DNA from: Chiloscyllium plagiosum
Taxonomy: Eukaryota
Assembly (NCBI RefSeq): GCF_004010195.1
Contig: NC_057751.1
Span: 19,559,994 to 19,621,993 of the forward strand
Length of the DNA: 62,000 nt
Reading direction: 5' to 3'
Shown: in pieces, positions 351 to 34,965 of the stretch
Position numbering within the stretch: the stretch's first letter is position 1
Layout of the letters: every line of letters begins with the position of its first letter
Notes under the pieces: model-generated
What the model was told of the DNA's origin: nothing
Seen by the model: the letters and a program-made list of their open reading frames with translations, nothing else
Database searches by the model: none
Position numbers and translations under genes: made by a program

Positions 351-1178
351 ATTCCGCCCATTTCAAAACTCAAACGATTGCCGGAGTTGCTCCTTGCCAC
401 AAGCACAAGGGACCTACTTTGTCCCAGATCCTCAAAACTGTGCAGCTCCTCATCCTGTCTACTTGCTGCCTGACCTGCTGCGCTGTTCCAGCAATAAAGT
501 TTCAACAAGCACAAGGGACCTACTTTGTCCCAGATCCTCAAAACTGTGCAGCTCCTCATCCTGTCTACTTTTCCCTTTCTTGTACAATGTACAAATTTTA
601 AACAAAACTCAAGAAGAGATCTTTCCTTAGTCCCTTTCGCTGTACTTTCTTTATTTAAAAATGGTTTAAAATACTTGTCCATATCCATTTTAAAAGTTAT
701 CATTGATTCTGCTATTTCCAGTTAGCATCACCTTACCATTCCTCTTCATGGTTCTTTTCGCTAACTCTATTGAACCATGGTGATGCCCCACACTCCGAGG
801 CCCTATCCTTCTCAATTAAGAAAAGGCAAGCTGCTTATCAACTGCTCTAATTTCTTAACATTTCACTGCAGCTTTAAAATCTGGCCATCCATGTTCGGTT
901 GTGCCCTCCCCAGCAGTTGTCCACGACACACGTTAAAGCCTGAATTAAAGATATCAGAGTTGAAAGATTCCATTTAAGTTCATTGTCAGCATTGCCAAAA
1001 TAAATTGTTCTAAAGACCTGTCCTTTATTTCACTGTAGCAGCCCAGACACACAACCGTACAAGTGTGAAGGGAGTGGGTTCACTCCTTTAATCTCCCTCC
1101 CCACAACTGTATTTTAATAAACCGCCCTCTCACTTTTTTTCTCTCAAGAGAACCGTTGTTATTTACAGAGTTCCCAAC

Positions 1179-1952
1179 CTCGTATTTTGACAGCTGCCTG
1201 CTGTTCCCGCGCTTCCACTCGGATCGTCCACCGGACTTCCTGTTATCCTCCTCCTTCGCGGGATTATTATTGTCATCCGTTCGGAAGATGAGACCGACGG
1301 ATTTTGCAAACTTTTTATTCAGTTTCAAAAATTCATCGTGGTAACTTTTGGGGAAAGTCTTCATCGTGTGCCGGACGCTGTCTGTAATCGTCTGCGCTGT
1401 GTCAAGGTCCAGTTGGGTGGGGCTCTCTCGGGGAGATGTGGGGTCGTTGCCTGGGACGCTGCTGTCAGGTTCTGGCGGTTGGCACTCTTCACCAGAAAAC
1501 TGCACTGAGAAATTCTCCCTCCCATCGGATGGGGAGTTGGGGCTGATGCTCCTTGCTGATGCAGTGCTGAAGCTTTGCAGATGTTTGCCTTGCTTTGCCG
1601 GAGTAGCGCCTCTGCTGCTGCTGACCGGTCTCTTCTTTGACTCCCGTGAAGATGCATTAATCAGTTTCGACGCAGAGAAGCTACTGAGGGGAACAGAGGC
1701 CAGAGGCTGGTTGAAAACGGCTGGGTTCACGACCCACTCCTGCAAGGCCTTCTGGAGCCTTCGCACATGGAGAGGCTTCGTCGCCATGCCAACCAGGGAC
1801 ATAATTTCCAGGAACTCCTCCTCACCCGCCTCACTGAGCTGCTGCACATCATCCCCTCCCTGCTGGATGAAGGTATTATAATAGGGCAGCAGATGGGCCC
1901 TCTGCAGGACACGGTACAGCTGCAGTTCACCAAGGGTCCGTGGCAAAGACAT
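1179..1952 (-). CDS. NAB2: NGFI-A/EGR-binding protein 2, large coding exon (NCD1 plus N-terminal part of NCD2); exon spans 1179-1974, gene continues beyond the left edge
   Basis: Translation MSLPRTLGELQLYRVLQRAHLLPYYNTFIQQGGDDVQQLSEAGEEEFLEIMSLVGMATKPLHVRRLQKAL is NAB NCD1. YRVLQRA, MATKP, SARSxSP and LKLNKKxAxSVG match NAB2 rather than NAB1. Minus-strand acceptor ttactcacag| precedes 1974; donor GAG|gttggg follows 1179, at the same position as the LHE|LT junction of mammalian NAB genes. The neighbouring gene is NEMP1, as for mammalian NAB2. Confidence 0.93.
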
Positions 1953-2575
1953 TGCGGGGGACTCGCTGCTGAACCTGTGAGTAAACAACGCGGTTTTTAG
2001 TCTCATAAATCAGAATAAACCTCGTCCTTTTTCAGGGGAAGAACACAGGGGCGATATTTACCCCACACATTCTATCGAAAGAAACATAAAGTCAAGACAC
2101 TGGTGAGTGTCACCATTTTGCAAGCATTGCCCAACTGCTCTCAAGGTTTGTTTTCACTGGGCAGGCAAGGTGTTTATAATAAATGATCGGATCAACAAAG
2201 CAGTTAGTTCGGCGCTTTGTTTCATTTTTTGGCTTTCAAATGACGCTGGCCGGCTATGGCAGTAACTAGAGAGCCTCAGGACAGCCTGGCCAGAACGTCT
2301 GTCCATGGGGATGGCTCTGACCTGCTCAGCTGAATGGCTCCTGTGGCACTGGGAAGAGTGGTAGACTGGCAGAGGCCAGGGCCCAACTTGTAGGATTGGC
2401 AAAATAATTCCTGCTCTTTCTCTCAGCCCTGTACACATGATAAAGAATTCATGTTATGACTCTCACAGGCAGATACCAAAAATAGTAATCAAGGACTTTT
2501 TGATCAGTGCAGTTTTCATTGGGATCTCACCTAATGCTTGACTCCAGGGCATACCTTGGCAGCTAAACAATAAGC

Positions 2576-19596: not shown

Positions 19597-21085
19597 ATAG
19601 AGTCACAGGGATGTACAGCACAGAAACAGACCCTTCGGTCTAACTTGTCCACGCCGACCTGATATCCCAACTTAATCTAGTCCCATTTGCCAGCACTTGG
19701 ACCATATCCCTCTAAACACTTCCTATTCATATACCCATCCAGATGACTTTTAAATGCTGTAACTGTACCAGCCTCCACCACTTCCTCTGGCAGCTCATTC
19801 CTTTGCATGAAAAAGTTGCCCCTTAGGTCCCTTTACAGTTTTTCCCCTCTCACCCTAAACCTATGCCCTCTAGTTCTGGACTCCCCCACCGCAGGGAAAA
19901 GACCTTGTCTGTTTATCCTATCCAAGCCCCTCATGATTTTATAAACATTTATAAGGTCACCCGTCAGCCTCCAACGTTGGCAACATCCTTGTAAATCTTT
20001 TCTGAACTCTTTCAAGTTTCATAACATCCTTCCAATACAAAGTGATCAGAACTGCATGCAATATTCCAAAAGTAGCCTAACCAATGTCCTGTACAGCCGC
20101 AACATGACCTCCCAACTCCTATAACCAATACTCTGACCAATAAAGGAAAGCATAGCCTTCTTCACTATCCCATCTATCAACAACAATATTTCCAACCTGC
20201 ACTCTAAGGTCTCTTTGCTCAGTAGCATTCCCCAGGACCTTATCATTAAGTATATAAGTCCTGCTCTTTTTTGTTTTTCCAAAATGCAGCACCTCACATT
20301 TATCTAAATTAAACTCCATCTGCCACTTCTCAGCCCATTGGCCCATCTGATCAAGATCCCATTGTAATCTGACGTAAACTTCTTCACTGTCCACTACACC
20401 TCCAATTTTGGTGTCATTTGCAAACTTACTAACTATACTTCCTATGTTCTTATCTAAATCATTTATATAAATGACGAAAAGTAGTGGACCCAGCACCAAT
20501 CCTTGTGGCACTCCACAGGTCACAGGCCTCCAATCTGAAAAACAACTCTTTACCAGCACCCCTTGTCTTCTAACTTTGAGCCAGTTCTGTATCCAAATGG
20601 CTAGTTCTCCCTGTACTCCATGAGATCTAACCTTGCTAACCAGTCTCCCATGAGGAACCATGTTGAACGCCTTACTGAAGTCCATATAGATCACATCTAC
20701 CGCTCTGCCCTCATCAATCCTCTTTGTTACTTCTTCAAAAAACTCAATCAAGTTTGTGAGACATGATTTCCCACACACAAAGCCACGTTGACTATTCCAA
20801 ATCAGTCCTTGCCTTTCCAAATACATGTACATCCTGTCCCTCAGGATTCCCTCAAACAACTTGCCCACCACCGACGTCAGGCTCACCGGTCTATAGTTCC
20901 CTGGCTTGTCTTTACCGCCCTTCTTAAACAGTGGCACCACGTTAGCCAACCTCCAGTCTTCCGACACCTCACCTGTGACTATCGATGATACAAATATCTC
21001 AGCAAGAGGCCCAGCAATCACTTCTCTAGCTTCCCACAGAGTTCTCAGGTACACCTGATCAGGTCCTGGGGATTTATCCACCGTC
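19597..21085 (-). mobile_element. CR1/HER1 LINE with a long reverse transcriptase ORF2 remnant
   Basis: ORF 20119-21090: KSPGPD, NYRPVSLTSVVGK, DFSKAF, GVPQGLVLGPLLF, KFANDTK (catalytic YADD/FADD degenerate). Frameshifted toward the 3' end. Confidence 0.95.
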
Positions 21086-21239
21086 CACAAGTTAGCTAAT
21101 TTTAGTTTCTTCAGAAGAGAAATGATAAAGTAATAAAAGTGATACTTTTCATTATATCTTTAAAACTTCTGACGGTTGTTGCTGTCAAATCACTCCCCTC
21201 TCAGCAGGACAGTCAAGCTGACTTCAGAACGCTACATTC

Positions 21240-21978: not shown

Positions 21979-23230
21979 AGAGTCATAGAGATGTACAGCA
22001 TGGAAACAGACCCTTCGGTCCAACCTGTCCATGCCGACCAGATATCCCAACCCAATCTAGTCCCACCTGCCAGCACCAGGCCCATATCCCTCCAAACCCT
22101 TCCTTTTCATATACTCATCCAAATGCCTCTTAAATGTTGCAATTGTACCAGCCTCCACCACTTCCTCTGGCAGCTCATTCCATACACATACCACCCTCTG
22201 CATGAAAAAGTTGTCCCTTAGGTCTCTTTTATATCTTTCCCCTCTCACCCTAAACCAATGTCCTCTAGTTCTGGACTCCCTCACCCCAGGGCTGAGACTT
22301 TGTCTATTTATCCTATTCATGCCCCTCGTAATTTTATAAACCTCTATAAGGTCACCCCCTCAGCCTCCGACGCTCCAGGGAAAACAGGCCCAGCCTGTTC
22401 AGCTTCTTTCTATAGCTCAAATCTTCCAACCCTGGCAACATCCTTCTAAATCTTTTCTGAAGCCTTTCAAGTTTCACAACATCTTTCCGATAGGAAGGAG
22501 ACCAGAAATGCACACAATATTCCAACAGTGGCCTAACCAACATCCTGTACAGCCACAACATGACCTCCCAACTCCTGTACTCAATATTCTGACCAATAAA
22601 GGAAAGCATACCAAACACCGCCTTCACTATCCTATCTACCTGCGACTCTACTTTCAAGGAGCTATGAATGTACACTCCAAGGTCTCTTTGTTCAGCAACA
22701 CTCCCTGGGACCTTACCATTAAGTGTATAAGTCCTGCTAAGATTTGCTTTCCCAAAATGCAGCATCTCATTTATCTGAATTAAACACCATCTGCCACTTC
22801 TCAGCCCATTGGCCCATCTGGTCAAGATCCTGGTGTAATCTGAGGTAACCTTCTTCGTTGTCCACTCCACCTCCAATTTTGGTGTCATCAGCAAACCTGC
22901 TAACTATATCTCTTATGCTCGCATCCAAATCATTTATATAAATGATGAAAAGTAGAGGACCCAGCACTGCCTTATTGAAGTCCATATAGATCACATCTAC
23001 TGCTCTGCCCTCATCAATCCTCTTTGTTACTCCTTCAAAAAACTCAATCAAGTTTGTGAGACATGATTTCCCATGCACAAAGCCATGTTGAATATCCCTA
23101 AACAGTCCTTGCCTTTCCAAATACATGTACATCCTGTCCCTCAGGATTCCCTCCAACAACTTGCCTACTACTGATGTCAGGCTCACTGGTCTATAGTTCC
23201 CTGCCTTGTTCTTACCACCCTTCTTAAACA
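21979..23230 (-). mobile_element. CR1/HER1 LINE fragment with an internal deletion
   Basis: RT motifs; DFNKA is joined directly to VLGPLLF at about 22965. FADDTK present; 3' tail at 21979. Confidence 0.93.
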
Positions 23231-25699
23231 GTTGATAGCTGCATTGTCGGATGTATTATTCTTCTGATACAGTGTTAAGTTGAGGCTACACCTGCCTGCC
23301 TGGTGCTTCAGGAATTATCTATGGTGTTCTTCCAGTTGCATGACCAGCATTCCTCCCTTGACCGACACTGCCAGATGCATTGGTCACTTATCCTGTTGTT
23401 GTTTATAGAAGGTTGCTATGGCAAAATGTCTGGCTACTTTTTCAATGTAGATAACTCCATTTGACAGAAATTCCTTCAAGCATTGCTGAGACAAGTTTTC
23501 AGAGTAAGATTCTGTAAGTTGTAAGATGCTTACCAATCATTTGGATATTCAGAATTCATCTTTGGTAACTTCAGTGGAATTCAAACTTGCCATTTGTTTC
23601 TAGTTGTCATAGATTTCATGAAAATAACAGAATATTTTGTGTACTTCAAGATAAACTTTTATCATATTAATCATTTTAATGAACTTCCAAGCTGTTTTAT
23701 TTTATTTTGTTTTTCATTTTTTGAGGGAGGTGGGTGCCACTGGCTAACCAGCATTTACTGCCCATCCTCAGTTGCCCTTGAAAAGGTGGTGATGAGCTGC
23801 AGTCCACCTGCTATGAGTTGACCCACAATGCCATTGGGGAGGGAATTCCAGGGTTTTGACCCAGTGACAGTGAAGAAATGGCGATATATTTCCAAGTCAG
23901 GATGGTGAGTGGCTTGGAGGAGAACTTGAAGGTGGTAGTGTTCTCATATATCTGCTGCCCTTATCCTTCCAGATGGAAGTGGTCCTGGGTTTGGAAGATG
24001 CTGTCTGAGGATCTTTGGTTAATTTCTGCAGTGCATCTTACAGATAGTACAGTTTGCAACTGAGTGTCGATGGTGGAGGGAGTGGATGTGGTGCCTATCA
24101 AGCGGGCTGCTTTGACCTGGATGGTGTCAAGCATCTTGATCGTTGTTGGAGCTGCACCTATCCAGGCAAGTGGGGAGTGTTCCATCACACTCCTGACTGA
24201 TGTCTTGCGATGATGGACAGGCGTTGGGGGGTCAGGAAGTGAGTTACTTGCCGCAGTATTCCTAGCCTCTGATCTGCTGTTGTAGTCACTGTGTTTGTGG
24301 TGAGTTCAGTTGAGTTTCTGATCAATGGTAATTCCCACGATGTTGACAGTGGGGGATTCAGTGGTAACACCGTTGAATGTCAATGGGTGGTGGTTAGATT
24401 GTCTCTTGTTGGTGTTGGCCACAGCCTGGTATTTGTTGTGGCATGAATGTTAGTTGCCACTTGTCAGCCCAAGCCTGGATATTGTCCAGATCTTGTTGCA
24501 TTTGGACACAAACTGCTTCAGTGTCTGAAGAGTCGTGAATAGTGCTGAAAATTATGCAATCATCGGTGAACATCCCCACTTCTGACCTGGAGACTTCTGA
24601 CATCTGAGGGGAAGGCCATTGATGAAGAACTGAAGATGGTTGGGTCCAGGACGCTACCCTGAAGAACATCTGCAGAGATGATTTACCTCCAACAACCCTG
24701 AACCTCTTCCCATGTATCAGGTATGACTTCAACCAGTGGAGAGTTGGAGATAGCCATTGATTCCAGTTTTGCTAGGGCTTCTTGATGCCACACTATTGAA
24801 TACAGCCTTGATGTTAAGGGTTGTCACTCTCGCCTCCCCTCTGGAATTCAGCTCTTTTGCAATATTTGAACCAAGGCTGTAATAAGGTCAGGAGCTGAGT
24901 GGCCCTGGCAGAACCCAAACTGGGCGTAACTGAACAGGTTATTGTTGAGCAGGTGCTGCTTGATAACACTTGTTGACACCTTCCATCACTTTACTGATGA
25001 TCAACAGTAGGCTGATGGGGCAGTAATTAGCTGGGTTGGATTTGTCCTGCTATTTATGTACAGGACATACCTGGGCAATTTTCCACATTGTTGGGTAGAT
25101 GCCAGTGTTGTAACTGTACTGGAAGAGCTTGGCTAGGGGAGCAGCAAGTTCTGGAGCACAAGTCTTCAGTACTATTGTTGGAATGTTATCAGGGCTCATA
25201 GACTTTGCAGTGTCCAGTGCCTCCAACCGTTTCTTGATATCACATGGAGTAAATCAAATTGGCGGAAGACTGGTATGTGTAATGCTGGGGACCACTGGAA
25301 GAGGCCGAGATAGATCAATTCTGGCTGAAGATTGGTGTGAAAGCTTCAGCCTTATCTTTTACACTGATGTGCTGGGCTCTTCCATCATTGAGAATGGGGG
25401 TATTTGTGGCGCCTCCTCCTCCTGTGAGTTGTTTAATTGTCCCCCACCATCCAGGACAGGATGTGGCAGGACTGCAGAGCTTGGCTCGGATCTGATTGTT
25501 GTGGGAGTTGCTTAGCACTGTCTATCATTTGCTGCTGATGCTGTTTGGCATGCAAGCAGTCCTGTTTGGTGGCTTTACCAGGTTGACACCTCATTTTCAG
25601 GTGTGTCTGGTGCTTTTCCAGGCATGCTCTCCTGCACTCTCCATTTTACCAGGGTTGATCCCCTGACTTGATGGTAATAGTTGAGTGGGTGATATGCCG

Positions 25700-26425: not shown

Positions 26426-29400
26426 GATATGCCGGCCCATGAAGTTACAGATTGTGCTGGAATACAATTATGCTGCTGTCAATGGTCCACAGCACCTCAT
26501 GGATGCCCAGTCTTGAGCTGTTCGAAGTCTGTCCCATTTAGCATGGTGATAGTGCCACACAACATGATGGTGGTTATTCTCAACATGAAGATGGGACTTC
26601 GTCTCCATAAGGACTGTGCGATGATTGCTCTTATTGACACTATCACGGACAGATGCATCTGCACCTGGCAGATGGGTGAGGTTAAGTATGTTTTTCCCTC
26701 TTGTTGTTTCCTTCATCTGCTGCAGACCCAGTCGAGCAGCTATATCCTTTAGGACCCAACCAGCTCAATCAGTCGTAGTACTACTGCTATCCACTCTTGG
26801 TGGTGGACATTGAAATCCCCCACCCAGAGTACATTTTATGCCCTGATCTATATCTCTGACTAAGGTTTAAGCTTTCTCATGTTATCAGGGTTTACCTTTG
26901 AGAAAGGTCGATTAGATTTGATAATTTCCCAAATTAAGGAGCCTGCAACTAATAGCTTCATGGAATCCTGGCCCTTGCTCTGGTGCTCTTTGTGGGCCTG
27001 TCATACTGTAGTGGGGAGGTGTAGGACAGAAATGCTGATAAATGTTGGAGAAACTCAGTAGGTCTGCAAGCATTTGTGGAGAGAAACTGAGTTAATGTTT
27101 TGAGTCCTATATGTCTCTTGTCCAGATCTGAAAAGAGGTGGAAATATGATAGGTTTTATGCTATTTCTTAAAAGCAAGGTGGGGTCAGGTAAAACAAGAG
27201 AGGCGCGAGGTTAGAGAGTAAGGGAGATTTAAGTACCAAAGATGTCCTGGAACAAAAGGCAAAAGAGTGGTCATGTTCACAGTGAAGAAACAAAGTATTA
27301 GTCCAAAGTTGGTGTTAATAGTAGAGTCAAGGTTACTGCTTAACTTTATTTTATGGAAGATGATTCATGATCTTAAGTGTTGAACTCCATGAAGACTGTA
27401 AAGTGCCTATTTGGAGAATGAGGTGCTATTTTTGTCTCTACTGATGCCAAACCTGTTGCAGTTTCTTAGCACTTCTTACTTTTATTTGCAGCATCTGCAG
27501 TATTTTGCATTTATATACTCAGTTTGGGTTCTGTCAGAGCAACTTGGCTCCTGACCTTATTGTAGCCTTAGTCCAAATGTGGGCAAAAGAGCTGAACTTC
27601 AGTGGAAGTGACGTCAAGCTTTCAGGTTTTTGTCTTTATCTAAACTTGTCAATCTTGTACACCTCTTGACATCAAGGCAGCATTTGACTTTGTATGGTAT
27701 CAAGGTGCCCTAGCAAACTGGAGTCATAAGGGGTTAAATTCCACAGTTTGGAGTCATACCCAGTGGTATTGGAGGTCAATCATCTCATTTCCATGATGTT
27801 GCTGTAGAAGTTCCTTTAGGTAGTATCCTAAGCCCCACCATCTTCAGCTACATCCCCCCCCCCCCCCCCCCCCAATCATGCGGTCAGAAGTAGTGATATT
27901 TGCTTTTGTTTACAATTTTAGCACAATGAGTAACTCTTCAGATACTGAAGTAGTTGTGTTCATAGGCAGCAAGATCCGAAAATTGTCCAGGCAAAAAAAA
28001 ATTAAGTGCCAAACAATGAGCAGCTCCAGCAACAGAGAATCTAACCATCTTGTTTTGACATTTCATGGCATTACTGTTGATAAATGCTGCACTGTCAACA
28101 TTCTGTGGATGACTATTAACTAGAAACTGAACTGGACCAGACCTATAAATACTGTTGCGATGAGATCAGATCAGGGGCTGGAATTCTGCAGCTGGTAGTT
28201 TGTCTCCTAACTCAAGCCTGTGAGACACATGCCACATGTAATGGAATATTCTCAACTTGCCTGGATGAATGCTGCTGCAACAGCACTCCAAGTTCAACAT
28301 GGAACAAATTAATTGGCACCCCATCTACCACCTTCTATATTCACTCCCCTTCGCTGCTGCACAAAGTGGCAGCAGCATGTATCATTTAAAGGTGTCCTGC
28401 AGCAACTCACTGAGGCTCCTTTTGGAAGCACCTTTCAAACCTGCATTCTCCATCCCTAGAAGCACGAGAGTGGCAGGCATGCAGGAACACCACCCCTGCA
28501 CATGCCCCACCAACCCAAGTTGGAACGATAGCACTGTTCCTCCATTGTCACTGAATCACATTATGAGCAATATTTGATCCACGTTTCCTATGTCCTGTGT
28601 GAGCACACTTATGACTTCTTGTCCTCAAACGTTCTGCTGCATTGTTGTTATTGATTAAAACAGTCGTCCATTTTTGCAGCAGCAGTCTTTCTTGATTCTA
28701 GTCCTTTCTGTTAGAACAAAGTGAATATAGCGTTATATAGCACGGAAACAGATCCTTCGGTCCAATTTGTCTGGGCCAACCAGATATCCCAATCTGACAT
28801 AGTCCCATTTGCCAGCATTTGGCCCATATCTCCCTCAACCCTTCCTATTCCCATACCCATCCCGATGCCTTTTAAATGTTGTAATTGTCGCCATCAACAC
28901 CACCACTTCTGGCAGCTCATTCTATACACGCACCATCCTCTGCCTGAAAAAGTTACCCCTCAGGTTCTTTTTAAATCTTTCCCCTCCCACCTTAAACCTA
29001 TGCCCTCTAGTTTTGAACTCGTACACCCTCAGAAAAATATATTAGCTATTCACCCTATCCGTCACCCTTGTGATTTTATAAACCTCTACATCTCCTCTGC
29101 AGGGAATAAAGCCCCAGCCTGTTCAGCCTCTCCCTATAACTTAAACCCTCCAGTCCTGGCAACGTGCTGGTAAATCTTTTCTGCACCTTCTCAAGTTTAA
29201 CAATATCCTTTTGACAGAAGGGCAACTAGAATTGTACACAGTATTCTAAAAGTGGCTTTACCAAAGTCCTGTACAGCCGTAATATGATGTCTTAACTTCT
29301 ATACTCAAATGTTCTGACCAATGAAGATATGGATGCCAAACACCATCCTCATCACCCTATCTACCTGCAACTCCACTTTCAAGGAATTATGCACCTGCAC

Positions 29401-29783
29401 CCCTAGATCTTTGTTCGGCAACACTCCCCACGGCCCTACAATTAACTGCATAAGTCCTGTCCAGGTTTGCCTTCTCAAAATCCAACACCACTTTTCTCTA
29501 AATTAAACTCCATCTCCCACTCGGCCCATCTGATCAAGGTCTCGTGTTCTGAGAGAATCTTCTTCACTACACCACCTATTATGGTGTCATCTGCAAATTT
29601 ACGAACCGTACCTCCTATATCCTCATCCAAATCATTTATATAAATGGCAAAAAGCAATGGAGCCAGAACCAATCCTTGCAGCACACCACTGGTCACAGGC
29701 CTCTACTCCGAAAAGCAACTCTCTACCACCACTCTCTATCTCCTACATTCAAACCAATCTTGTATCCAATTGGCTAGCTCCCC

Positions 29784-30005
29784 CATTAGGTTCTTTTTTT
29801 TGAGATTCTTACACACTTGATGCAACTGCAGTATTCTTATTGATTCTGAATAGGAGATGAGAATGTAAATTTACTCTGAATAGTCGGAGATGGCAATGTA
29901 AATTTGATCACATTGTACCTGTAAGACAGAGAAACATACCACCCTACGTCTAGAGCATTCAATTTCTTACAGCTCAGCAGAGCAAATTAACCCCTTAACA
30001 TTTCA
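29784..30005 (-). repeat. 3' LTR (222 bp)
   Basis: Second copy of the LTR, preceded on the minus strand by the polypurine tract AAAAGGAGGAAA. Contains an internal ~33-bp duplication (gaatag..gagatg..aatgtaaattt). Confidence 0.88.
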
Positions 30006-30373
30006 TTTCCTCCTTTTATCATTCCATGATAACCACCTAAAAGGTGCTACCAACTTATTCATACGAATCTTACAGCCAGTATTTTAAGCAAGTTATTGAC
30101 ACACAACATACAATAATTATAACAACAAAAATTACTAGTCCGTGCAGTAGATAGGATCCCCAGGATCCTCCTCCATGGGAAAAAAGTGTTTACCAGTAAA
30201 GTTCTTAAATCCACAGTCCTTAGTGGCCACTCCACCCCCTCCAAGTAGAGTGGAAACGAGCCAGTTATCCAAAAACACCTTCAATAAACTCCAACCTGAA
30301 AACAAAATCCAGTCTGTCCTTGTGCATCCCTCCACGGAGAAATCTGAATTCTTGGATAAGGGCAGTTAAATAC

Positions 30374-30670
30374 TTAACAAAACTGTTGAGACTTCCATCT
30401 TTGCGGAGATGCTTCAGGTGGAGGATACCAGTGCATCTGAGTGTGCAGCAGCAGGCTAGGTGAGTGCAGCATTCTTTGCTGCTTCTACTCCTGCTCTGCT
30501 GTTAAATGTAACAAAGTCAACTGGCTGTTTTGATGTTAGCTTGATCAGTGGGCCTTCATCTCACTTAAATGATCGAAGGAGAAGGTAAAGCTCACGTGGT
30601 TTAATCTCCATAGGAAGGCCACTGACCAAAAGCGTTTGGACCTCCTCTTCACTGTTGTTAGCTTCTTCAC
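30374..30670 (-). pseudogene. RBPMS2: Processed (intronless) RBPMS2 retro-pseudogene, internally deleted, with two stops and a frameshift
   Basis: Minus-strand translation [60 protein letters not shown], then ALT*PAA, then in a shifted frame LHTQMHWYPPPEASPQRWKSQQFC*. Matches the RBPMS-family RRM and C-terminus; FDSRAG, FTYPAA and RWYP favour RBPMS2 over RBPMS. Stops at 30561-30563 and 30456-30458. Confidence 0.88.
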
Positions 30671-31928
30671 TTCTTGTGCTCGTGACTGGGGAGATGATTG
30701 AATCCATTGGATCAGGTTGTGGAGGGGTGGGCGGTCGTCCGAAGGCATGCTTTACCTGTGAATGGAGAAACTCTAGAGACGATGTTTCACTATTGATGTC
30801 ATTATCAAGTTTTATACAATCCATAAACTTCTAAATTGTACTGCCTAAACAATTCGGTCATTTATAAACAGCAATCAGTGGTCCTAAAATCAAACCCTCA
30901 GAGAACCCCATTCAGGTTATTCAAAAATTATTTTCCTTTGACAAATTAATAATTGGCTAATGTGAAAGCTGTCAGGAAAGGTATTTCAAAAGTCTGGAAT
31001 AGCAAGAAAACAACAAAATGTTTCCTGTGCTTTAGCCATTGAAGAGGCAGTTTCAGCTCCGATTTAAATCTCAAATATTCATGGGAAACATGCAGAATAT
31101 ATCAAAATATGTCCTCCAAATGAAAACTCCATAATTTCTCTGTTAAAGCAAATATATATACATATTTATATATGTCTGCTACATATATACATATTATATC
31201 TAGCTTCAGATACATTGCAAAGGCCTGACATTAATGACAAAAATGATCCTAATTTTCATGATCAGTGTTTTTAATTAGAATGTGGTTGCTGATAAACTGA
31301 CATTGTAAATTTAACTTCCCAAATAAAAGTTGAAATTACAGTGGTGACAGACCAGGAATTCTACAACTTTGATAGAGATCAGCATTCTTTGAATTTGCAA
31401 TGTGAAGAGGGCCAATGAAGTCTTAGCAATAATTGACAGAAATTAAACAGCTAGTCTCAAGTTCTAATATTCTCTAAAATCTGAACAAAACATCAAAATT
31501 AAAATGGACTCTTCTTTTTGTGAATATTCTGCATTAAAAAAGCATCAAAGATATTTTAATACAATACTCTCATCTGGCTAAAGCATGACCACTGACACAA
31601 TGGTCTTTTTGAAACAGGCATTGTAGAATTTCAAACAAACCAGCGGCTCAAGGCCCTCAATCAATTTGTTTTAAGGTTGCATGTTTGATAATTTTAAAAA
31701 GGACCTAATGTTGTATAATATTAATGTAAAAACAAAATCTGCCCTATTACACAGCCCACAAAGTACATTGAATTGAGATCCCAGTAATAGCAATAACATC
31801 ATACTGCCAGGTACTAATCCAAGCTCTAAGTTCATCTGCCTTACCTACCACACTTCTTGCATTAAAACAAATGCACCTCAGACCACCAGTCCCTTTGCAT
31901 TCTTCATCTGCTCCCTGTCTACTGCTCT

Positions 31929-32196
31929 GGGGACCCGGGTTTGATTCCCGCCTCGGTTGACTGTGGAGTTTGCACATTCTCGCTGTGTCTGTGTGCATTT
32001 CCTCCAGGTGCTCTGGTTTCCTCCCACAATCCAAAGGTATGCAGGTTGGGTGAATTAGCCATGCTAAATTGCCCATTGTGTTAGGTGCGCTAGTCAGAGG
32101 GAAATGGGGCTAGCTGGGTTACTCTTCAGAAGGTCGGTGTGGACTTGTTGGGCCGAATGGTCTGTTTCCACACTGTTGCTAATCTAATCTAATCTA
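31929..32196 (+). mobile_element. HE1-like V-SINE inserted inside the LTR element, next to a short CR1 endonuclease fragment (about 31775-31925, minus)
   Basis: ggacccgggtttgattccc B-box, V-domain and (aatct)n tail. Adjacent minus-strand CICFNARSVVGKADELRAWI..DVIAIT is the CR1 endonuclease N-terminus. Confidence 0.8.
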
Positions 32197-33229
32197 ACAC
32201 AAATAAGGCAAAACAGTTACTTAAAAAGATTTTGGGTTTCACCCCCACATTCCCTGTGAAATAAAACCAGTTCCCTGTAATTACAAATATTCTGCCAATT
32301 CACTCCTTATTCCCTGAATAAAGACAATGCTGTTGTATTAGGTCACCATTCTTCTTAGGTTTTAAAAAATGCTGGAAGTCTTTAGCATGGCTTTCCCTTA
32401 GTATTTTCAACAGTTTCAACCCTTGCAAATTTGACTGGTGTTATAAGCATCCTCAAATTTTGACCATACACAGTGAACACAGACAACTAAAACTTAAACC
32501 AGCAAAGAGGTGTCACTTAATATTTCAGTAACAAATCTGGGTCTTGATTGACCCATTATGTCACCTTTTCCATGTGAATTTCCTATGTACTGTCAGATAT
32601 CAATAGTTTATTGTTTAAGCTACAATAACAAAGCTCATCAAGAGTTCTAACTAGACTTATGCAAATAAAAGACTGTTGCATTTAAAACCTGTAAGAGGAA
32701 TGCTTTTTAAAGTCTCAACTTCCTAACTATGCTAGTCCAGTGTCTTCAAGTCTCCACACCCACTTCAGGGTCCTGACTTTTGCGTGGGGGATTTCCCCTC
32801 TTAACAACTGGTCTAAGGCAGAGTGGTTGAGACAGACACAGTAGTTAATTTTTTTTAATCTTATGCACTACGCTCCGGAGCCTCAAACCTCACTATTAGA
32901 GGACTCTGACCTCCGAATTCCAGGGGGACTCGAATCTCCCGTTCCAGTGAACTTATGATTCTGAGGACTTAAACCTCCAAATTCCAGGGAGACTCTAACA
33001 TTCCTTTCCAGAAATTTATGGTTCTGAAAGCAAACTCATTAGTGTGCAAGTGTGTACATTACCTCAGATATTCCGCCACTACAGAGTCCCAGGGGACAAG
33101 GGGTTAATTGAGTGATAGGTTAAGGAGAGAGATCAAGGTAAATCTTACCTCGTGGGCCCATCCGTCTCACATAACCGGCACTCAGACAATTGCTTATTCA
33201 GTCCGCCTAGAAACTCTGTATATGTTGGA

Positions 33230-33247
33230 GTCCCACCGCTACCACCA
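33230..33247 (-). promoter_or_regulatory. Primer-binding site complementary to the tRNA-Leu 3' end
   Basis: Minus strand TGGTGGTAGCGGTGGGAC versus the expected tRNA-Leu(AAG/TAG) PBS TGGTGGCAGCGGTGGGAT (16/18), 2 nt downstream of the 5' LTR. Confidence 0.85.
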
Positions 33248-33249
33248 AA

Positions 33250-33470
33250 TGTTAAGTTCTTTTTCTTGAGATTCTTACACACTTGATGCAACTGCAATGT
33301 TCTTATTGATTCTGAATGGGGGACAATAATGCAAGTTTACTCTAAATAATAGGAGATGGCAATGTAAATTTTTCACATTGTTCCTGCAAGACAGAGAGAC
33401 ATACCACCCTACCCGCGGGGCATCCAATTTCTTACAGGTCAGCAGAGCAAATTAACCCCTTAACATCTCA
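33250..33470 (-). repeat. 5' LTR (221 bp; minus strand TGAGATG...TTAACA)
   Basis: Roughly 85% identical to 29784-30005 by manual count. TG...CA termini on the minus strand, followed after 2 nt by the PBS. Confidence 0.88.
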
Positions 33471-34374
33471 CCCCTAGATCCCATGTGATCTAGCCTTACT
33501 AACCAGTCTGCCATGTGAAACCTTGTCAAATGCTTTGCTGAAATCCATATAGACAATGTGTCTACCACTCTGCCTTTGTCAATCTTCTTTGTCACTTCAA
33601 AAACTCAGTCAAATTAAAGAGACACGATTTCCCACGCACACAACCATGTTGACTATCCCTAATCAGTACTTGCCTTTTCAAATGCAACTAAATCTTGTCC
33701 GTCAGAATCCTCTCCAACAACTTCCCTCTCACTGATGTCATGCTCACCGGTCTATAGTCCCTGGATTTTCCTCACAGAATTTCTTAAATAATGGCACCAT
33801 GTTAGCTACACCTTCAGTTTCTAGAACCTCACCTGTGCCTGTAGATGATACAAATACCTCAGCAAGGGGCACAGTAATCTCTTCCCCAGCTTCTCTCAAA
33901 CATCTGGGAAACACCTGATCAAGTCCCAGGAATTTATCTACCTTTATATGTTTTAAGACCTCCAGTACATCCTCTTCTGTAATATGAAATGTTTTCAAGA
34001 CATCACTATTTATTTCCCCAAGTACCCTCGCTTCCATGTCCTTCTCCACAGTAAATACTGACGTGAAATACTTATTTAGTATCTAGCCCACCTCTTATGG
34101 TTACACACATAGATGGCCTTATTGATCTTTAAGGGGCCCTATTCTCTGCCTTTTTACTCATCTGCCCTTAATGTACTTATAGAATCTCATTGGATTCTCC
34201 TTAACTCTATTTGCCAAAGCTATCTCACGTCCCCTTTTTGCCCTCCAGCTTTCCCTTTCTACTGCCCTTGTCCCCTCTAGGGATTCACTCAATCCCAGCT
34301 GTCTGAAACTAATATATGCTGCCTCCTTTTTCTTGACCAGAGCCTAAATTTCTCTAAGTCATCCAGCATTCCTG

Positions 34375-34965
34375 TGTTATGGACCAGACCAAGCCCCCTC
34401 AAAACATGTCACGGAGATAGCCTAGACCCAAACTTATCTTAAAGGCAAGTGCCAGGCGTTCTGTTCCAGATGGAATTTGATTGGTCAAGTTGTCAGGCTT
34501 GAAGCAAAACACACTTAATTCATATACTACAGTTAAAATACAGATAAATTTTTTTAAAAATTGGCTTAACTGTAACTCTATCAAAATACTTAATAAAATG
34601 ATAAACCACTCATTAATTGTTCCATTTTAGTAACATCCCAAAAGCACCCCCTTGGCAAAGTCAGTAAAATAGATCGTCTCGCATGCAATTTTAGCAGCTG
34701 GAAGAGAACCCCAGTTTTTAAGTTGTAACAGAGAGAAATAAGAGTTTCCACATCCAGCCTCAAGACCCCAGCAACTGCAGAAACCTAAAACTAGACATCC
34801 CGGTTCTTTGGGAGCTTGACCAACCTCATTTAGGCTGCTTGTTGCAAGGCCTCACAAGCTGTTTACTTTATTGGCTTTGAGCAGACTGCTCATTACCTCT
34901 GCCACAACTCTGTTCATATTTTAAAAAAGACAAAATATACCACTTAAAGCCATAGTATCGTCCCA
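34375..34965. mobile_element. Probable solo LTR (about 590 bp)
   Basis: Begins TGTTATGG and ends ATCGTCCCA, imperfect 4-bp flanks cctg/ccta. Interrupts CR1 sequence that resumes at 34966. Confidence 0.55.

What the first reader, a model, noticed from the sequence alone, without database searches (positions are those of the whole stretch)
29784..33470. LTR/ERV-like element that appears to have captured the host RBPMS2 mRNA
Seen in sequence: a complete provirus architecture on the minus strand (5' LTR, tRNA-Leu PBS, internal region, polypurine tract, 3' LTR, CCCC target duplication, clean interruption of a CR1 LINE). Inside it lies an intronless RBPMS2 copy (30374-30670) in the same orientation as the element, with no poly(A) tail or separate TSD visible around it. 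Established: retroviruses and LTR elements can transduce cellular mRNAs by template switching, and RBPMS2 (Hermes) is an oocyte/Balbiani-body RNA-binding protein, so its mRNA is present in the germline. Inference: this is a fossil of a gene-transducing non-autonomous ERV family in a cartilaginous fish, possibly amplified as a unit. I cannot tell whether it has been described. LTRs are roughly 85% identical, so the insertion is old.
Basis: partly seen in the sequence, partly recalled or inferred. Interest (0 to 1): 0.88.

Follow-up and report, generated by a model that had tools for sequence, protein, structure and literature searches.

The report
Shark retrovirus relic carrying RBPMS2
This is a worn, non-autonomous endogenous retrovirus that picked up a spliced copy of the shark's RBPMS2 gene and then multiplied, gene fragment included, to hundreds of places in the genome: a clear and unusually prolific example of a known process.

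Summary
Window 29784-33470 (minus strand) is a complete LTR element. It has two LTRs (87% alike), a primer-binding site matching a host tRNA-Leu(AAG) gene at 17 of 18 bases, a polypurine tract, and a 4-bp CCCC target duplication. It sits in a LINE whose paralogues are uninterrupted at that point.

Inside lies an intronless RBPMS2 copy (30366-30709), with exact exon-exon joins relative to the intron-bearing host gene on contig C40.
- The RBPMS2 segment has 707 candidate loci, and all 40 scored match.
- About 145 intronless loci appear in a protein search.

A rarer, more diverged subfamily (about 38 loci, 3 examined) keeps the whole coding sequence, about 75 nt of 5'UTR, and RNase H and integrase remnants. 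The cDNA therefore lies downstream of pol, where env would be. The window's type is a derivative lacking about 87 codons, deleted across a 3-nt microhomology.

The captured frame decays neutrally, so it looks like a passenger. No helper virus, RNA evidence or 3' junction was obtained. Host-gene capture by ERVs is known; the copy number and the host lineage are new.

The parts
29780..29783 (.). Target-site duplication, left copy (cccc on the + strand)
   Evidence: Read directly. Matches 33471-33474. Paralogous LINE copies are uninterrupted here.
29784..30005 (-). 3' LTR. Short variant lacking about 300 bp present in other family LTRs. Terminal dinucleotide reads TG instead of CA.
   Evidence: 87.3% to the 5' LTR. 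Its first 181 nt are 98.9% identical to the LTR of the copy at C42:19.22 Mb. Deletion point lies between TGCAGT repeats.
30006..30017 (-). Polypurine tract AAAAGGAGGAAA
   Evidence: The same tract precedes the 3' LTR in L007 and, with changes, in L018.
30018..30365 (-). 3' internal segment of unresolved origin: either a downstream RBPMS2 3'UTR exon or the end of the retroviral env region
   Evidence: Shared by both subfamilies. Host similarity stops at 30366, where the host reads GTAAGT. No Pfam hit for its ORFs in 20 copies.
30366..30709 (-). Captured RBPMS2 cDNA, intronless and decayed. Contents: 25 nt of 5'UTR (30684-30709); start codon changed to ACG (30681-30683); codons 1-72; deletion junction (30469-30472); C-terminal codons; stop (30374-30376); 8 nt of trailer.
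   Evidence: Alignments to host exons L084, L079, L081 and L083 at 86-91%. PDB RBPMS/RBPMS2 hits. In-frame stops at 30561-30563 and 30456-30458.
30710..30796 (-). Remnant of the retroviral pol gene (integrase region after the catalytic core)
   Evidence: Homologous to L075:1966-2054, which follows an integrase core there (Pfam rve 6.7e-9). Assignment is by colinearity, with no direct family hit.
30797..31781 (-). Internal region X2: non-coding, origin unknown, family-wide
   Evidence: 589 candidate loci, 40 scored. No Pfam hit. In four copies its 3' part sits inside the integrase zinc-finger coding region.
31782..32193 (+). Secondary insertion private to this copy: a SINE with a (ctaat)n tail plus a LINE 5' fragment
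   Evidence: Other copies run from element position 1277 straight to 1690.
32194..32703 (-). Internal region X1: non-coding, origin unknown
   Evidence: Part of the 456-candidate 5' internal segment. Absent from full-CDS copies L075-L077.
32704..33229 (-). Leader downstream of the PBS, shared by all subfamilies. Inferred to hold the packaging signal.
   Evidence: Aligns to L075-L077 at 67-79%. The packaging role is inference.
33230..33247 (-). Primer-binding site for tRNA-Leu
   Evidence: 17 of 18 bases complementary to host tRNA-Leu(AAG) gene L082 + CCA. Four other 5' LTRs are followed by the same kind of site.
33250..33470 (-). 5' LTR (TG...CA), short variant
   Evidence: LTR family has 1391 candidate loci.
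33471..33474 (.). Target-site duplication, right copy (cccc)
28800..29779 (-). Downstream half of the interrupted LINE (reverse-transcriptase frame)
   Evidence: RVT_1 profile positions 114-189. Contiguous with the other half in L073.
33475..34400 (-). Upstream half of the interrupted LINE
   Evidence: RVT_1 profile positions 65-95 (E 0.0038, below the curated cut-off). Contiguity shown.

Best explanation
The element is one copy of a large family of defective, non-autonomous endogenous retroviruses, class-I-like. An ancestor of the family transduced the spliced mRNA of the host gene RBPMS2 (rbpms2a).

Most likely course of events:
1. RBPMS2 mRNA was co-packaged with retroviral RNA.
2. Reverse transcriptase switched templates twice. 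The result was a cDNA in which about 75 nt of 5'UTR, the whole coding sequence and at least 8 nt of trailer took the place of env, between the end of the integrase gene and the polypurine tract.
3. The chimera kept the LTRs, the tRNA-Leu primer site, the leader and the polypurine tract. A helper virus could therefore transcribe, package, reverse-transcribe and integrate it in trans.
4. Further deletions followed: most of gag-pol, the integrase C-terminal part with 50 nt of 5'UTR, and about 87 codons of RBPMS2 across a TGC microhomology. About 1.5 kb of unknown sequence was also acquired. This produced the form in the window, which amplified to hundreds of copies.
5. This copy integrated into a LINE with a 4-bp duplication. 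It later took a SINE/LINE insertion, lost its reading frame, and exchanged about 960 bp with a sister copy 370 kb away.

Shown: the architecture, the spliced host origin, the shared junctions, the multiplicity, the neutral decay.
Inferred: template switching as the capture route, trans-mobilisation, and the order of the deletions.
For: Provirus architecture and empty-site paralogues.

Family-wide 4-bp duplications at solo LTRs (exact in 6 of 28 LTR loci read, near-exact in several more) and tRNA-Leu sites after four 5' LTRs. A second full copy has GGAC/GGAT.

Retroviral nature: the L076 ORF has MLV/XMRV RNase H as its best PDB hits (4.3e-05). L075 has an integrase core (Pfam rve 6.7e-9). The zinc-finger region matches P0156, which carries Integrase_H2C2 + rve.

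Host origin:
- Host exons on C40 are 100% identical to P0018, have AG/GT borders, and are spread over about 100 kb.
- L075 carries three of them joined exactly: 2409-2474 | 2476-2625 | 2626-2771.
- L075 aligns to P0018 at 81% over 162 residues.
- The window's copy crosses the exon 1|2, 52|53 and 174|175 joins without introns.

Amplification as a unit:
- 707 candidates, 40 of 40 scored match.
- About 145 of 150 scored protein matches are intronless copies outside C40.
- 27 exact 24-nt C-terminal matches outside C40, none in the control.

Full-CDS subfamily: about 38 intronless loci. 3 of 3 examined lie inside the same LTR/leader. 33 of 40 scored places hold the whole pol/5'UTR junction at 75-83% identity.

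Deletion junction: AATGC|TGCG with shared TGC, inside exons and not at splice sites.

Neutral decay: codon-position diversity 0.156/0.150/0.151, permutation p 0.53; 2 of 31 copies are open over the 105 codons.
Against: - No autonomous relative with gag-pol-env and this LTR was found. 28 LTR loci and 41 internal loci gave no gag, protease or env hit.
- Microhomology at the two capture junctions could not be examined, because no uncaptured progenitor is in hand.
- The 348 bp between the RBPMS2 trailer and the polypurine tract is unassigned.
- Copy numbers above the 40-150 scored places are first-look candidates, not verified loci.
- About 1.5 kb of the interior (regions X1 and X2) has no known source.
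- Class-I assignment rests on best PDB hits and on TSD length (the latter criterion recalled), not on a phylogeny.
- No RNA evidence could be obtained.
Confidence: 0.9

Rival explanations
1. A LINE-made processed pseudogene of RBPMS2 landed by chance inside an already integrated provirus. That provirus later became the master copy of the family. The capture would then have been at the DNA level rather than by template switching.
For: LINEs are extremely abundant here (9346 candidates for the flanking LINE alone). The amplified family would look the same afterwards.
Against: No poly(A) tract and no duplication flank the RBPMS2 part in the window or in L075-L077. The cDNA replaces the env region instead of interrupting a continuous sequence. 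The 3' end of host similarity lies at an exon border 8 nt after the stop, not at a polyadenylation site.
Confidence: 0.05
2. The RBPMS2 part is not a passenger. The element, or the host, used the encoded protein or the RNA, for example for germ-plasm localisation, and that is why this derivative out-multiplied its relatives.
For: The RBPMS2-bearing forms account for all internal regions recovered next to this LTR family. Some copies keep open frames of 160-200 codons. Public gene models are built on such copies: P0003, P0157, P0158, and the first 101 residues of P0004.
Against: The most successful form lacks strand beta-4 of the RRM and about 87 codons. Diversity is equal at the three codon positions, and 29 of 31 copies are broken. 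That test cannot see selection on a master lineage, however.
Confidence: 0.07
3. The two repeats are not LTRs of one insertion. They would be two solo LTRs, or a product of recombination between two different proviruses, given 87% identity and a 3' part that is 99.5% identical to another copy.
For: Heterogeneous identity to the copy at C42:19.22 Mb: 93.6% / 99.5% / 93.8%.
Against: Both LTRs share the same rare 300-bp deletion, seen in none of the other 38 scored LTR places. Identical cccc duplications bracket the pair. The LINE flanks join exactly when the whole 3.7 kb is removed. Post-integration gene conversion explains the mosaic.
Confidence: 0.04

Closest known systems
CrocERV31 (SFV1-5B/5C_AMi) with captured nectin3, and CrocERV29 with captured KIT-ligand, in crocodilians (Chong et al. 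2014, PMC4299795; abstract and passages read)
   Same: An endogenous retrovirus holds a spliced host mRNA copy. For nectin3 the copy stands in place of env, and the chimera exists in several copies.
   Different: The crocodilian cases keep gag-pol and an open captured frame under purifying selection, and number a handful of copies (six for nectin3). Here the viral genes are almost gone, the captured frame decays neutrally, and loci number in the hundreds. The host is a cartilaginous fish.
ERV-Hako subtypes containing SUSD6 and SPHKAP sequence in primates (Frith 2025, PMC11905727; abstract and passages read)
   Same: Defective ERV subtypes carry parts of host genes and are propagated non-autonomously.
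   Different: Hako is a group II ERV with a tRNA-Trp primer. It holds different genes. I did not compare copy numbers or junction structure.
LTR-mediated retroposition by double template switch (Tan et al. 2016, PMC5131818; abstract and passages read)
   Same: A retrocopy replaces part of the internal region of an LTR element. It has no poly(A) and no own duplication, the mRNA is only partly copied, and there are secondary rounds of retroposition as a pseudo-LTR element.
   Different: Those retrocopies are young and mostly single, or have two insertion sites. Microsimilarity at the joints was shown there and could not be tested here. Here secondary retroposition dominates.
Acutely transforming retroviruses carrying cellular oncogenes (textbook; recalled, and cited within)
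   Same: A defective virus with a spliced cellular gene in place of viral genes, dependent on a helper.
   Different: Those are exogenous, somatic and selected for the captured protein's activity. This one is a germline fossil with a truncated, neutrally decaying insert.

Membership tests
LTR retroelement / provirus | Two direct LTRs with TG...CA ends | tested here: met
   221- and 222-nt LTRs, 87.3% identical. The 5' LTR reads TG...CA; the 3' LTR reads TG...TG, with two transitions. Family LTRs read TGAGATG...AACCTAACA.
LTR retroelement / provirus | Primer-binding site complementary to a host tRNA 3' end next to the 5' LTR | tested here: met
   17 of 18 bases to tRNA-Leu(AAG) gene L082 + CCA.
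LTR retroelement / provirus | Polypurine tract abutting the 3' LTR | tested here: met
   AAAAGGAGGAAA at 30006-30017.
LTR retroelement / provirus | Short target-site duplication and an empty site | tested here: met
   cccc on both sides. Flanks are contiguous in paralogous LINE copies. An orthologous empty site was not available.
Retroviridae-type ERV, class I (gamma/epsilon-like) | Retroviral pol domains (RNase H, integrase) of that lineage | tested here: inconclusive
   The window's copy has only an 87-nt pol remnant. Relatives have an RNase H end whose best PDB hits are MLV/XMRV (4.3e-05), and integrase H2C2 + core. The integrase's best PDB hit is foamy virus at E 0.06. No RT phylogeny was done.
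Retroviridae-type ERV, class I (gamma/epsilon-like) | 4-bp target duplication (criterion recalled) | tested here: met
   cccc here. ATAT, CTGG, ATCT, TAAG, TGAG and ATTG at solo LTRs.
Retroviridae-type ERV, class I (gamma/epsilon-like) | gag and env genes | tested here: not met
   No gag, protease or env family hit in 93 + 115 + 54 + 20 ORFs from the window and related loci. These are defective copies; an intact relative was not found.
Host-gene-transducing defective retrovirus / LTR-mediated retrocopy | Captured sequence is a spliced (intronless) copy of an intron-bearing host gene | tested here: met
   Exact exon-exon joins against host exons with AG/GT borders.
Host-gene-transducing defective retrovirus / LTR-mediated retrocopy | Replaces internal viral sequence; no poly(A); no own duplication | tested here: met
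   Lies between the integrase remnant and the PPT. No A-run or flanking repeat.
Host-gene-transducing defective retrovirus / LTR-mediated retrocopy | Microsimilarity at the virus/mRNA joints | not testable with these tools
   Needs the uncaptured progenitor sequence, which was not recovered.
Host-gene-transducing defective retrovirus / LTR-mediated retrocopy | Chimera retrotransposed again as a unit | tested here: met
   40 of 40 scored loci share the junctions. 30 of 30 aligned copies share the internal deletion. Insertion sites are distinct.
Functional RBPMS2 paralogue | Complete RRM and open reading frame | tested here: not met
   The RRM match stops at profile position 58 of 70, or PDB residue 68 of 98. 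The window's copy has ACG for the start, two in-frame stops and a frameshift.

The most novel reading that the evidence does not exclude
Carrying RBPMS2 sequence may itself have helped the element spread in the germline. RBPMS2/Hermes is a germ-plasm (Balbiani body) factor (recalled). Its mRNA or truncated protein might have routed the chimeric RNA to germ plasm, or interfered with host control. That would explain why RBPMS2-bearing derivatives are the only internal forms recovered for this LTR family, and why they reached hundreds of copies. A lesser variant: the dispersed half-RRM cassettes are being recruited as exons, as in the Hemiscyllium gene model P0004.
Probability: 0.08. Interest if true: 0.85.

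Novelty: new member of a known kind. Interest (0 to 1): 0.5.

Why it matters
- It is a clean, datable series: capture of a full mRNA, then deletion derivatives, then a burst. It shows that a gene-transducing retrovirus can become a high-copy genomic repeat in a vertebrate. The crocodilian case I read (nectin3) has six copies, and most of the fly retrocopies have one or two sites.
- It extends ERV gene capture to cartilaginous fishes.
- It has a practical side. Public annotation already carries 'RBPMS2-like' gene models built on these relics (P0003, P0157, P0158), plus a hybrid model in a second shark genus (P0004). Gene-family counts for RBPMS2 in sharks are therefore inflated by a transposon.
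- My searches found no paper describing it. Repbase/Dfam-type repeat libraries could not be consulted, so the family may already exist there under a neutral name.

Tried and rejected
- RNA evidence: the look-up of sequencing runs listed no RNA holder. Nothing can be said on expression.
- Helper virus: Pfam scans of ORFs of at least 90-100 aa around 28 LTR loci and 41 internal loci gave no gag, protease or env. RVT_1 hits there lie in flanking LINEs.
- Regions X1 and X2: no Pfam hit in 54 shorter ORFs. tblastx against the full-CDS copies found nothing.
- Env remnant idea for 30018-30365: many copies read a hydrophobic stretch followed by a short tail, but there was no Pfam hit in 20 ORFs and no usable ESM Atlas hit. 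Left open.
- Host 3'UTR: a search with L075:2772-3194 listed only element copies.
- First protein search with the window's 89-aa ORF found nothing.
- A THOC3-like ORF beside an LTR (L012) looked like a second capture, but the LTR is solo with its own duplication, so the ORF is flank.
- I first read the sister copy as 100% identical (rounded) and suspected an assembly artefact. Direct alignment shows 5 differences in 962 nt, so these are two real sequences.
- Earlier notes of this scan held nothing on this family.
Full report
SETTING. The window is contig C42:19559994-19621993 of a 3.56-Gb assembly. Element coordinates 'q' below count from window 33470 downwards on the minus strand (q = 33471 - window position).

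1. THE OBSERVATION

LTRs. The repeat finder gives direct repeats 29786-29905/33252-33371 (88%) and 29901-30005/33366-33470 (86%). BLAST gives 87.3% over 220 nt. Reading the ends:
- The 5' LTR is 33470-33250, TGAGATG...AACTTAACA.
- It is followed by TT and then TGGTGGTAGCGGTGGGAC.

Primer-binding site. A pattern search for the matching tRNA end found 6 genomic sites and none in the control. One of them, L082, is called tRNA-Leu(AAG) by ARAGORN and ends ...TCGAATCCCACCGCTACCA. With CCA added, the element's site is complementary at 17 of 18 positions.

Polypurine tract and target duplication. AAAAGGAGGAAA (30006-30017) abuts the 3' LTR (30005-29784), whose last two bases read TG rather than CA. 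cccc flanks both sides (29780-29783, 33471-33474).

Flanking LINE. The flanks carry two pieces of one reverse-transcriptase frame (RVT_1 profile 65-95 at E 0.0038, below the curated cut-off, and 114-189 at E 1.4e-08, above it). The LINE family has 9346 candidate loci. In paralogue L073 the left flank ends at 1817 and the right flank starts at 1813; L072 and L074 behave alike. So 3.69 kb was inserted cleanly with a 4-bp duplication.

2. THE RBPMS2 PART

Minus-strand frames read ...[69 protein letters not shown], and ...LHTQMHWYPPPEASPQRWKSQQFC*. The first piece hits human RBPMS (1.9e-10) and RBPMS2 (1.7e-08) in the PDB.

A better preserved sister copy (L043, 166-codon open frame) hits RBPMS at 8.3e-28 and RBPMS2 at 9.4e-26. 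The match stops at chain residue 68 of 98. Pfam RRM_1 is covered to position 58 of 70.

A library search with L043 returned P0018. Public records name it 'RNA-binding protein, mRNA-processing factor 2a isoform X9' of Chiloscyllium plagiosum, on a contig of exactly C40's length.

3. THE HOST GENE

Host exons on C40 are 100% identical to P0018 and have AG/GT borders:

| Exon content | C40 position |
|---|---|
| Exon 1 (5'UTR + MSTKSDEANNGEEE) | around 25026170 |
| Residues 53-74 | 25088013-25088078 |
| Residues 75-125 | 25094300-25094449 |
| Residues 126-174 | about 25100771-25100919 |
| Last coding exon ([20 protein letters not shown]) | ending 25128988 |

The exon for residues about 16-52 was not located. 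The gene spans over 100 kb. The window's copy crosses the exon 1|2, 52|53 and 174|175 joins without introns and is 86-91% identical to the exons. The direction of transfer is therefore host mRNA to element.

4. A FAMILY, NOT A SINGLE FOSSIL

First-look candidate counts (40 places scored in each search):

| Query | Candidates |
|---|---|
| LTR | 1391 |
| 30006-30900 (RBPMS2 segment) | 707 |
| 5' internal part | 456 |
| Middle part | 589 |

- For the RBPMS2 segment all 40 scored places match at 81-100%. 37 of the 40 carry 145 extra bp at q2685; 3 (this one, C23:33608267 and C24:52298619) do not.
- With P0018 as query, 150 places were scored. About 145 are intronless copies outside C40.
- Copies sit on dozens of contigs.
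- Of the 28 LTR loci fetched, 27 could be placed (L027 could not). Four are 5' LTRs followed by TT + a tRNA-Leu-type site. Three are 3' LTRs preceded by this family's internal region (L007, L016, L018); two of these (L007, L018) show the polypurine tract. Most of the rest look like solo LTRs.
- Six solo LTRs have exact 4-bp duplications (ATAT, CTGG, ATCT, TAAG, TGAG, ATTG), and several more are one base off.
- A second full copy on C24 has GGAC/GGAT.
- Normal family LTRs are 530-550 bp. The window's two LTRs both lack about 300 bp between TGCAGT repeats. None of the other 38 scored LTR places shares this. I infer a deletion in U5, which reverse transcription copies to both ends.

5. THE OLDER, FULLER FORM

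The middle of RBPMS2 (residues 75-157), which the window's type lacks, still finds about 38 intronless loci besides the host exons. Three were fetched (L075, L076, L077). All three have the same LTR ends and leader, then viral remnants, then RBPMS2.
- L075 joins host exons exactly (2409-2474 | 2476-2625 | 2626-2771). It aligns to P0018 at 81% over 162 residues.
- Upstream, L076 reads the end of an RNase H whose best PDB hits are XMRV and MLV (4.3e-05).
- L075 reads an integrase zinc-finger region and catalytic core (Pfam rve 6.7e-9; 53% to P0156, which carries Integrase_H2C2 + rve). This is followed by a post-core stretch.
- These copies carry 72-79 nt of host 5'UTR; the window's type keeps only 25.
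- The pol/5'UTR joint is present whole in 33 of 40 scored places at 75-83% identity to L075.
- Copies of the window's type are 83-86% identical to the window's copy. The fuller form looks older, but those two figures come from different queries.

6. THE WINDOW'S TYPE IS A DERIVATIVE

It has lost three things:
- the integrase C-terminal part together with about 50 nt of 5'UTR (172 bp);
- codons 73 to about 158 (about 87 codons);
- in this copy and a few others, the 145-bp zinc-finger remnant.

The coding deletion joins ...AAGAATGC to TGCGTTCACC... with TGC shared. It lies 7 nt before one exon's end and inside another exon. It is therefore a microhomology deletion, not exon skipping. 30 of 30 other copies aligned share it. 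So does the N-terminus of P0004, a Hemiscyllium ocellatum gene model (70% over 87 residues across the junction). The derivative thus exists in a second genus.

The type also contains about 1.5 kb (q768-1277, q1690-2674) absent from L075-L077 and without any coding signal. In four copies the 3' part of this sequence lies inside the zinc-finger coding region, so it may be a nested insertion that became part of the master.

7. NO SIGN THAT THE CAPTURED FRAME MATTERED

Among 30 copies (the converted sister excluded), mean pairwise diversity is 0.156, 0.150 and 0.151 at codon positions 1, 2 and 3 (permutation p 0.53). Only L043 and L037, 2 of 31 copies, are free of stops and frameshifts over the 105 codons.

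The window's copy has ACG for the start codon, TGA at 30561-30563, TAG at 30456-30458, and a frameshifting loss in the alanine run.

This is what neutral decay after insertion looks like. It does not test selection on the master lineage.

8. LATER HISTORY OF THIS COPY

- 412 bp (31782-32193) is private to this copy: a SINE in the opposite orientation with an (ATTAG)n tail, plus a LINE 5' fragment.
- q2685-3646 (window 29825-30786) differs at only 5 of 962 positions from the copy at C42:19222584-19223545, which is inverted and 370 kb away. The neighbouring 203 and 48 nt are 93.6% and 93.8% identical, and both tract ends coincide with large indels between the two copies.
- I read this as ectopic gene conversion after integration; the direction is unknown.
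- The 87% LTR identity therefore cannot date the insertion.
- Family-wide diversity of about 0.15 suggests an old burst, tens of millions of years at commonly assumed vertebrate rates. That figure is inference with no calibration.

9. WHAT STAYS OPEN

- The 3' joint. Host and element agree to 8 nt past the stop and part exactly where the host reads GTAAGT. So the element probably continues with a downstream 3'UTR exon, but I could not find it (caps reached). A hydrophobic reading in many copies suggested an env membrane anchor, but Pfam and the Atlas gave nothing.
- No helper virus was found.
- No RNA data.
- Counts beyond the scored places are candidates.

10. COMPARISON AND NOVELTY

Capture of spliced host mRNAs by ERVs is known:
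- nectin3 and KIT-ligand in crocodilians (PMC4299795, passages);
- SUSD6 and SPHKAP in primate ERV-Hako (PMC11905727, passages);
- the double-template-switch model with secondary retroposition (PMC5131818, passages).

This case fits that kind. It differs in scale, in the near-total loss of viral genes, and in host lineage. Searches combining RBPMS/RBPMS2, shark, Chiloscyllium, endogenous retrovirus and LTR retrotransposon found no description. Repeat libraries were not available to me.

Context. The nearest recognisable gene is a NAB-type exon at 1080-2006 on the minus strand, 28 kb away. No other copy of the family lies in the window.

Noticed in passing
window 29825-30786 and G000:C42:19222584-19223545 (L032:1501-2462): Two family copies 370 kb apart, in inverted orientation, share a 962-nt tract at 99.5% identity. 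The neighbouring sequence is about 93.7% identical, and the tract ends at large indels. This looks like ectopic gene conversion between dispersed ERV copies.
   Followed up: partly
P0003, P0157, P0158 (Chiloscyllium plagiosum) and P0004 (Hemiscyllium ocellatum): Public RefSeq gene models named 'RBPMS2-like' or 'rbpms2a-like' are built on copies of this element. A 'low choriolytic enzyme-like' (astacin-type) model has the element's deleted RBPMS2 reading as its first 101 residues. These are either annotation artefacts or exonisation.
   Followed up: partly
window 30797-31781 and 32194-32703; L032, L034, L035, L040: About 1.5 kb of family-wide internal sequence has no coding signal and no counterpart in the fuller subfamily. 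In four copies its 3' part splits the integrase zinc-finger coding region. Its source (nested repeat or second captured sequence) is unknown.
   Followed up: partly
window 31782-32193: Composite secondary insertion: a tRNA-type shark SINE with an (ATTAG)n tail, joined to a LINE 5' fragment whose reading resembles an endonuclease N-terminus (resemblance recalled).
   Followed up: partly
L012:1737-2030 (+), G000:C14: A 98-codon open frame matching the THOC3 beta-propeller (1.5e-20) lies 51 bp from a solo LTR of this family. It is flanking host or pseudogene sequence, not part of the element.
   Followed up: partly
window 1080-2006 (-): A 308-codon open frame with NAB conserved regions NCD1 (2.7e-42) and NCD2: an exon of a NAB1/NAB2-type gene.
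   Followed up: no
window 20119-21156 (-) and 22767-23252 (-): Longer reverse-transcriptase frames (RVT_1 3.4e-28 and 4.9e-15) of other LINE copies.
   Followed up: no
L047:63-707 (-) and L067:394-981 (-): Flanks of two family copies hold a GDSL-lipase-like frame (2.3e-09) and a GIY-YIG frame (2.8e-05). The latter is probably from a Penelope-like element.
   Followed up: no
G000:C16:36126085 and G000:C22:16933074: Two fuller-type copies still encode the exact host N-terminal peptide TKSDEANNGEE. The deleted type reads S-E-E-A-N-N-S at those positions in the copies seen. This is a shared difference that could serve as a subfamily marker.
   Followed up: no
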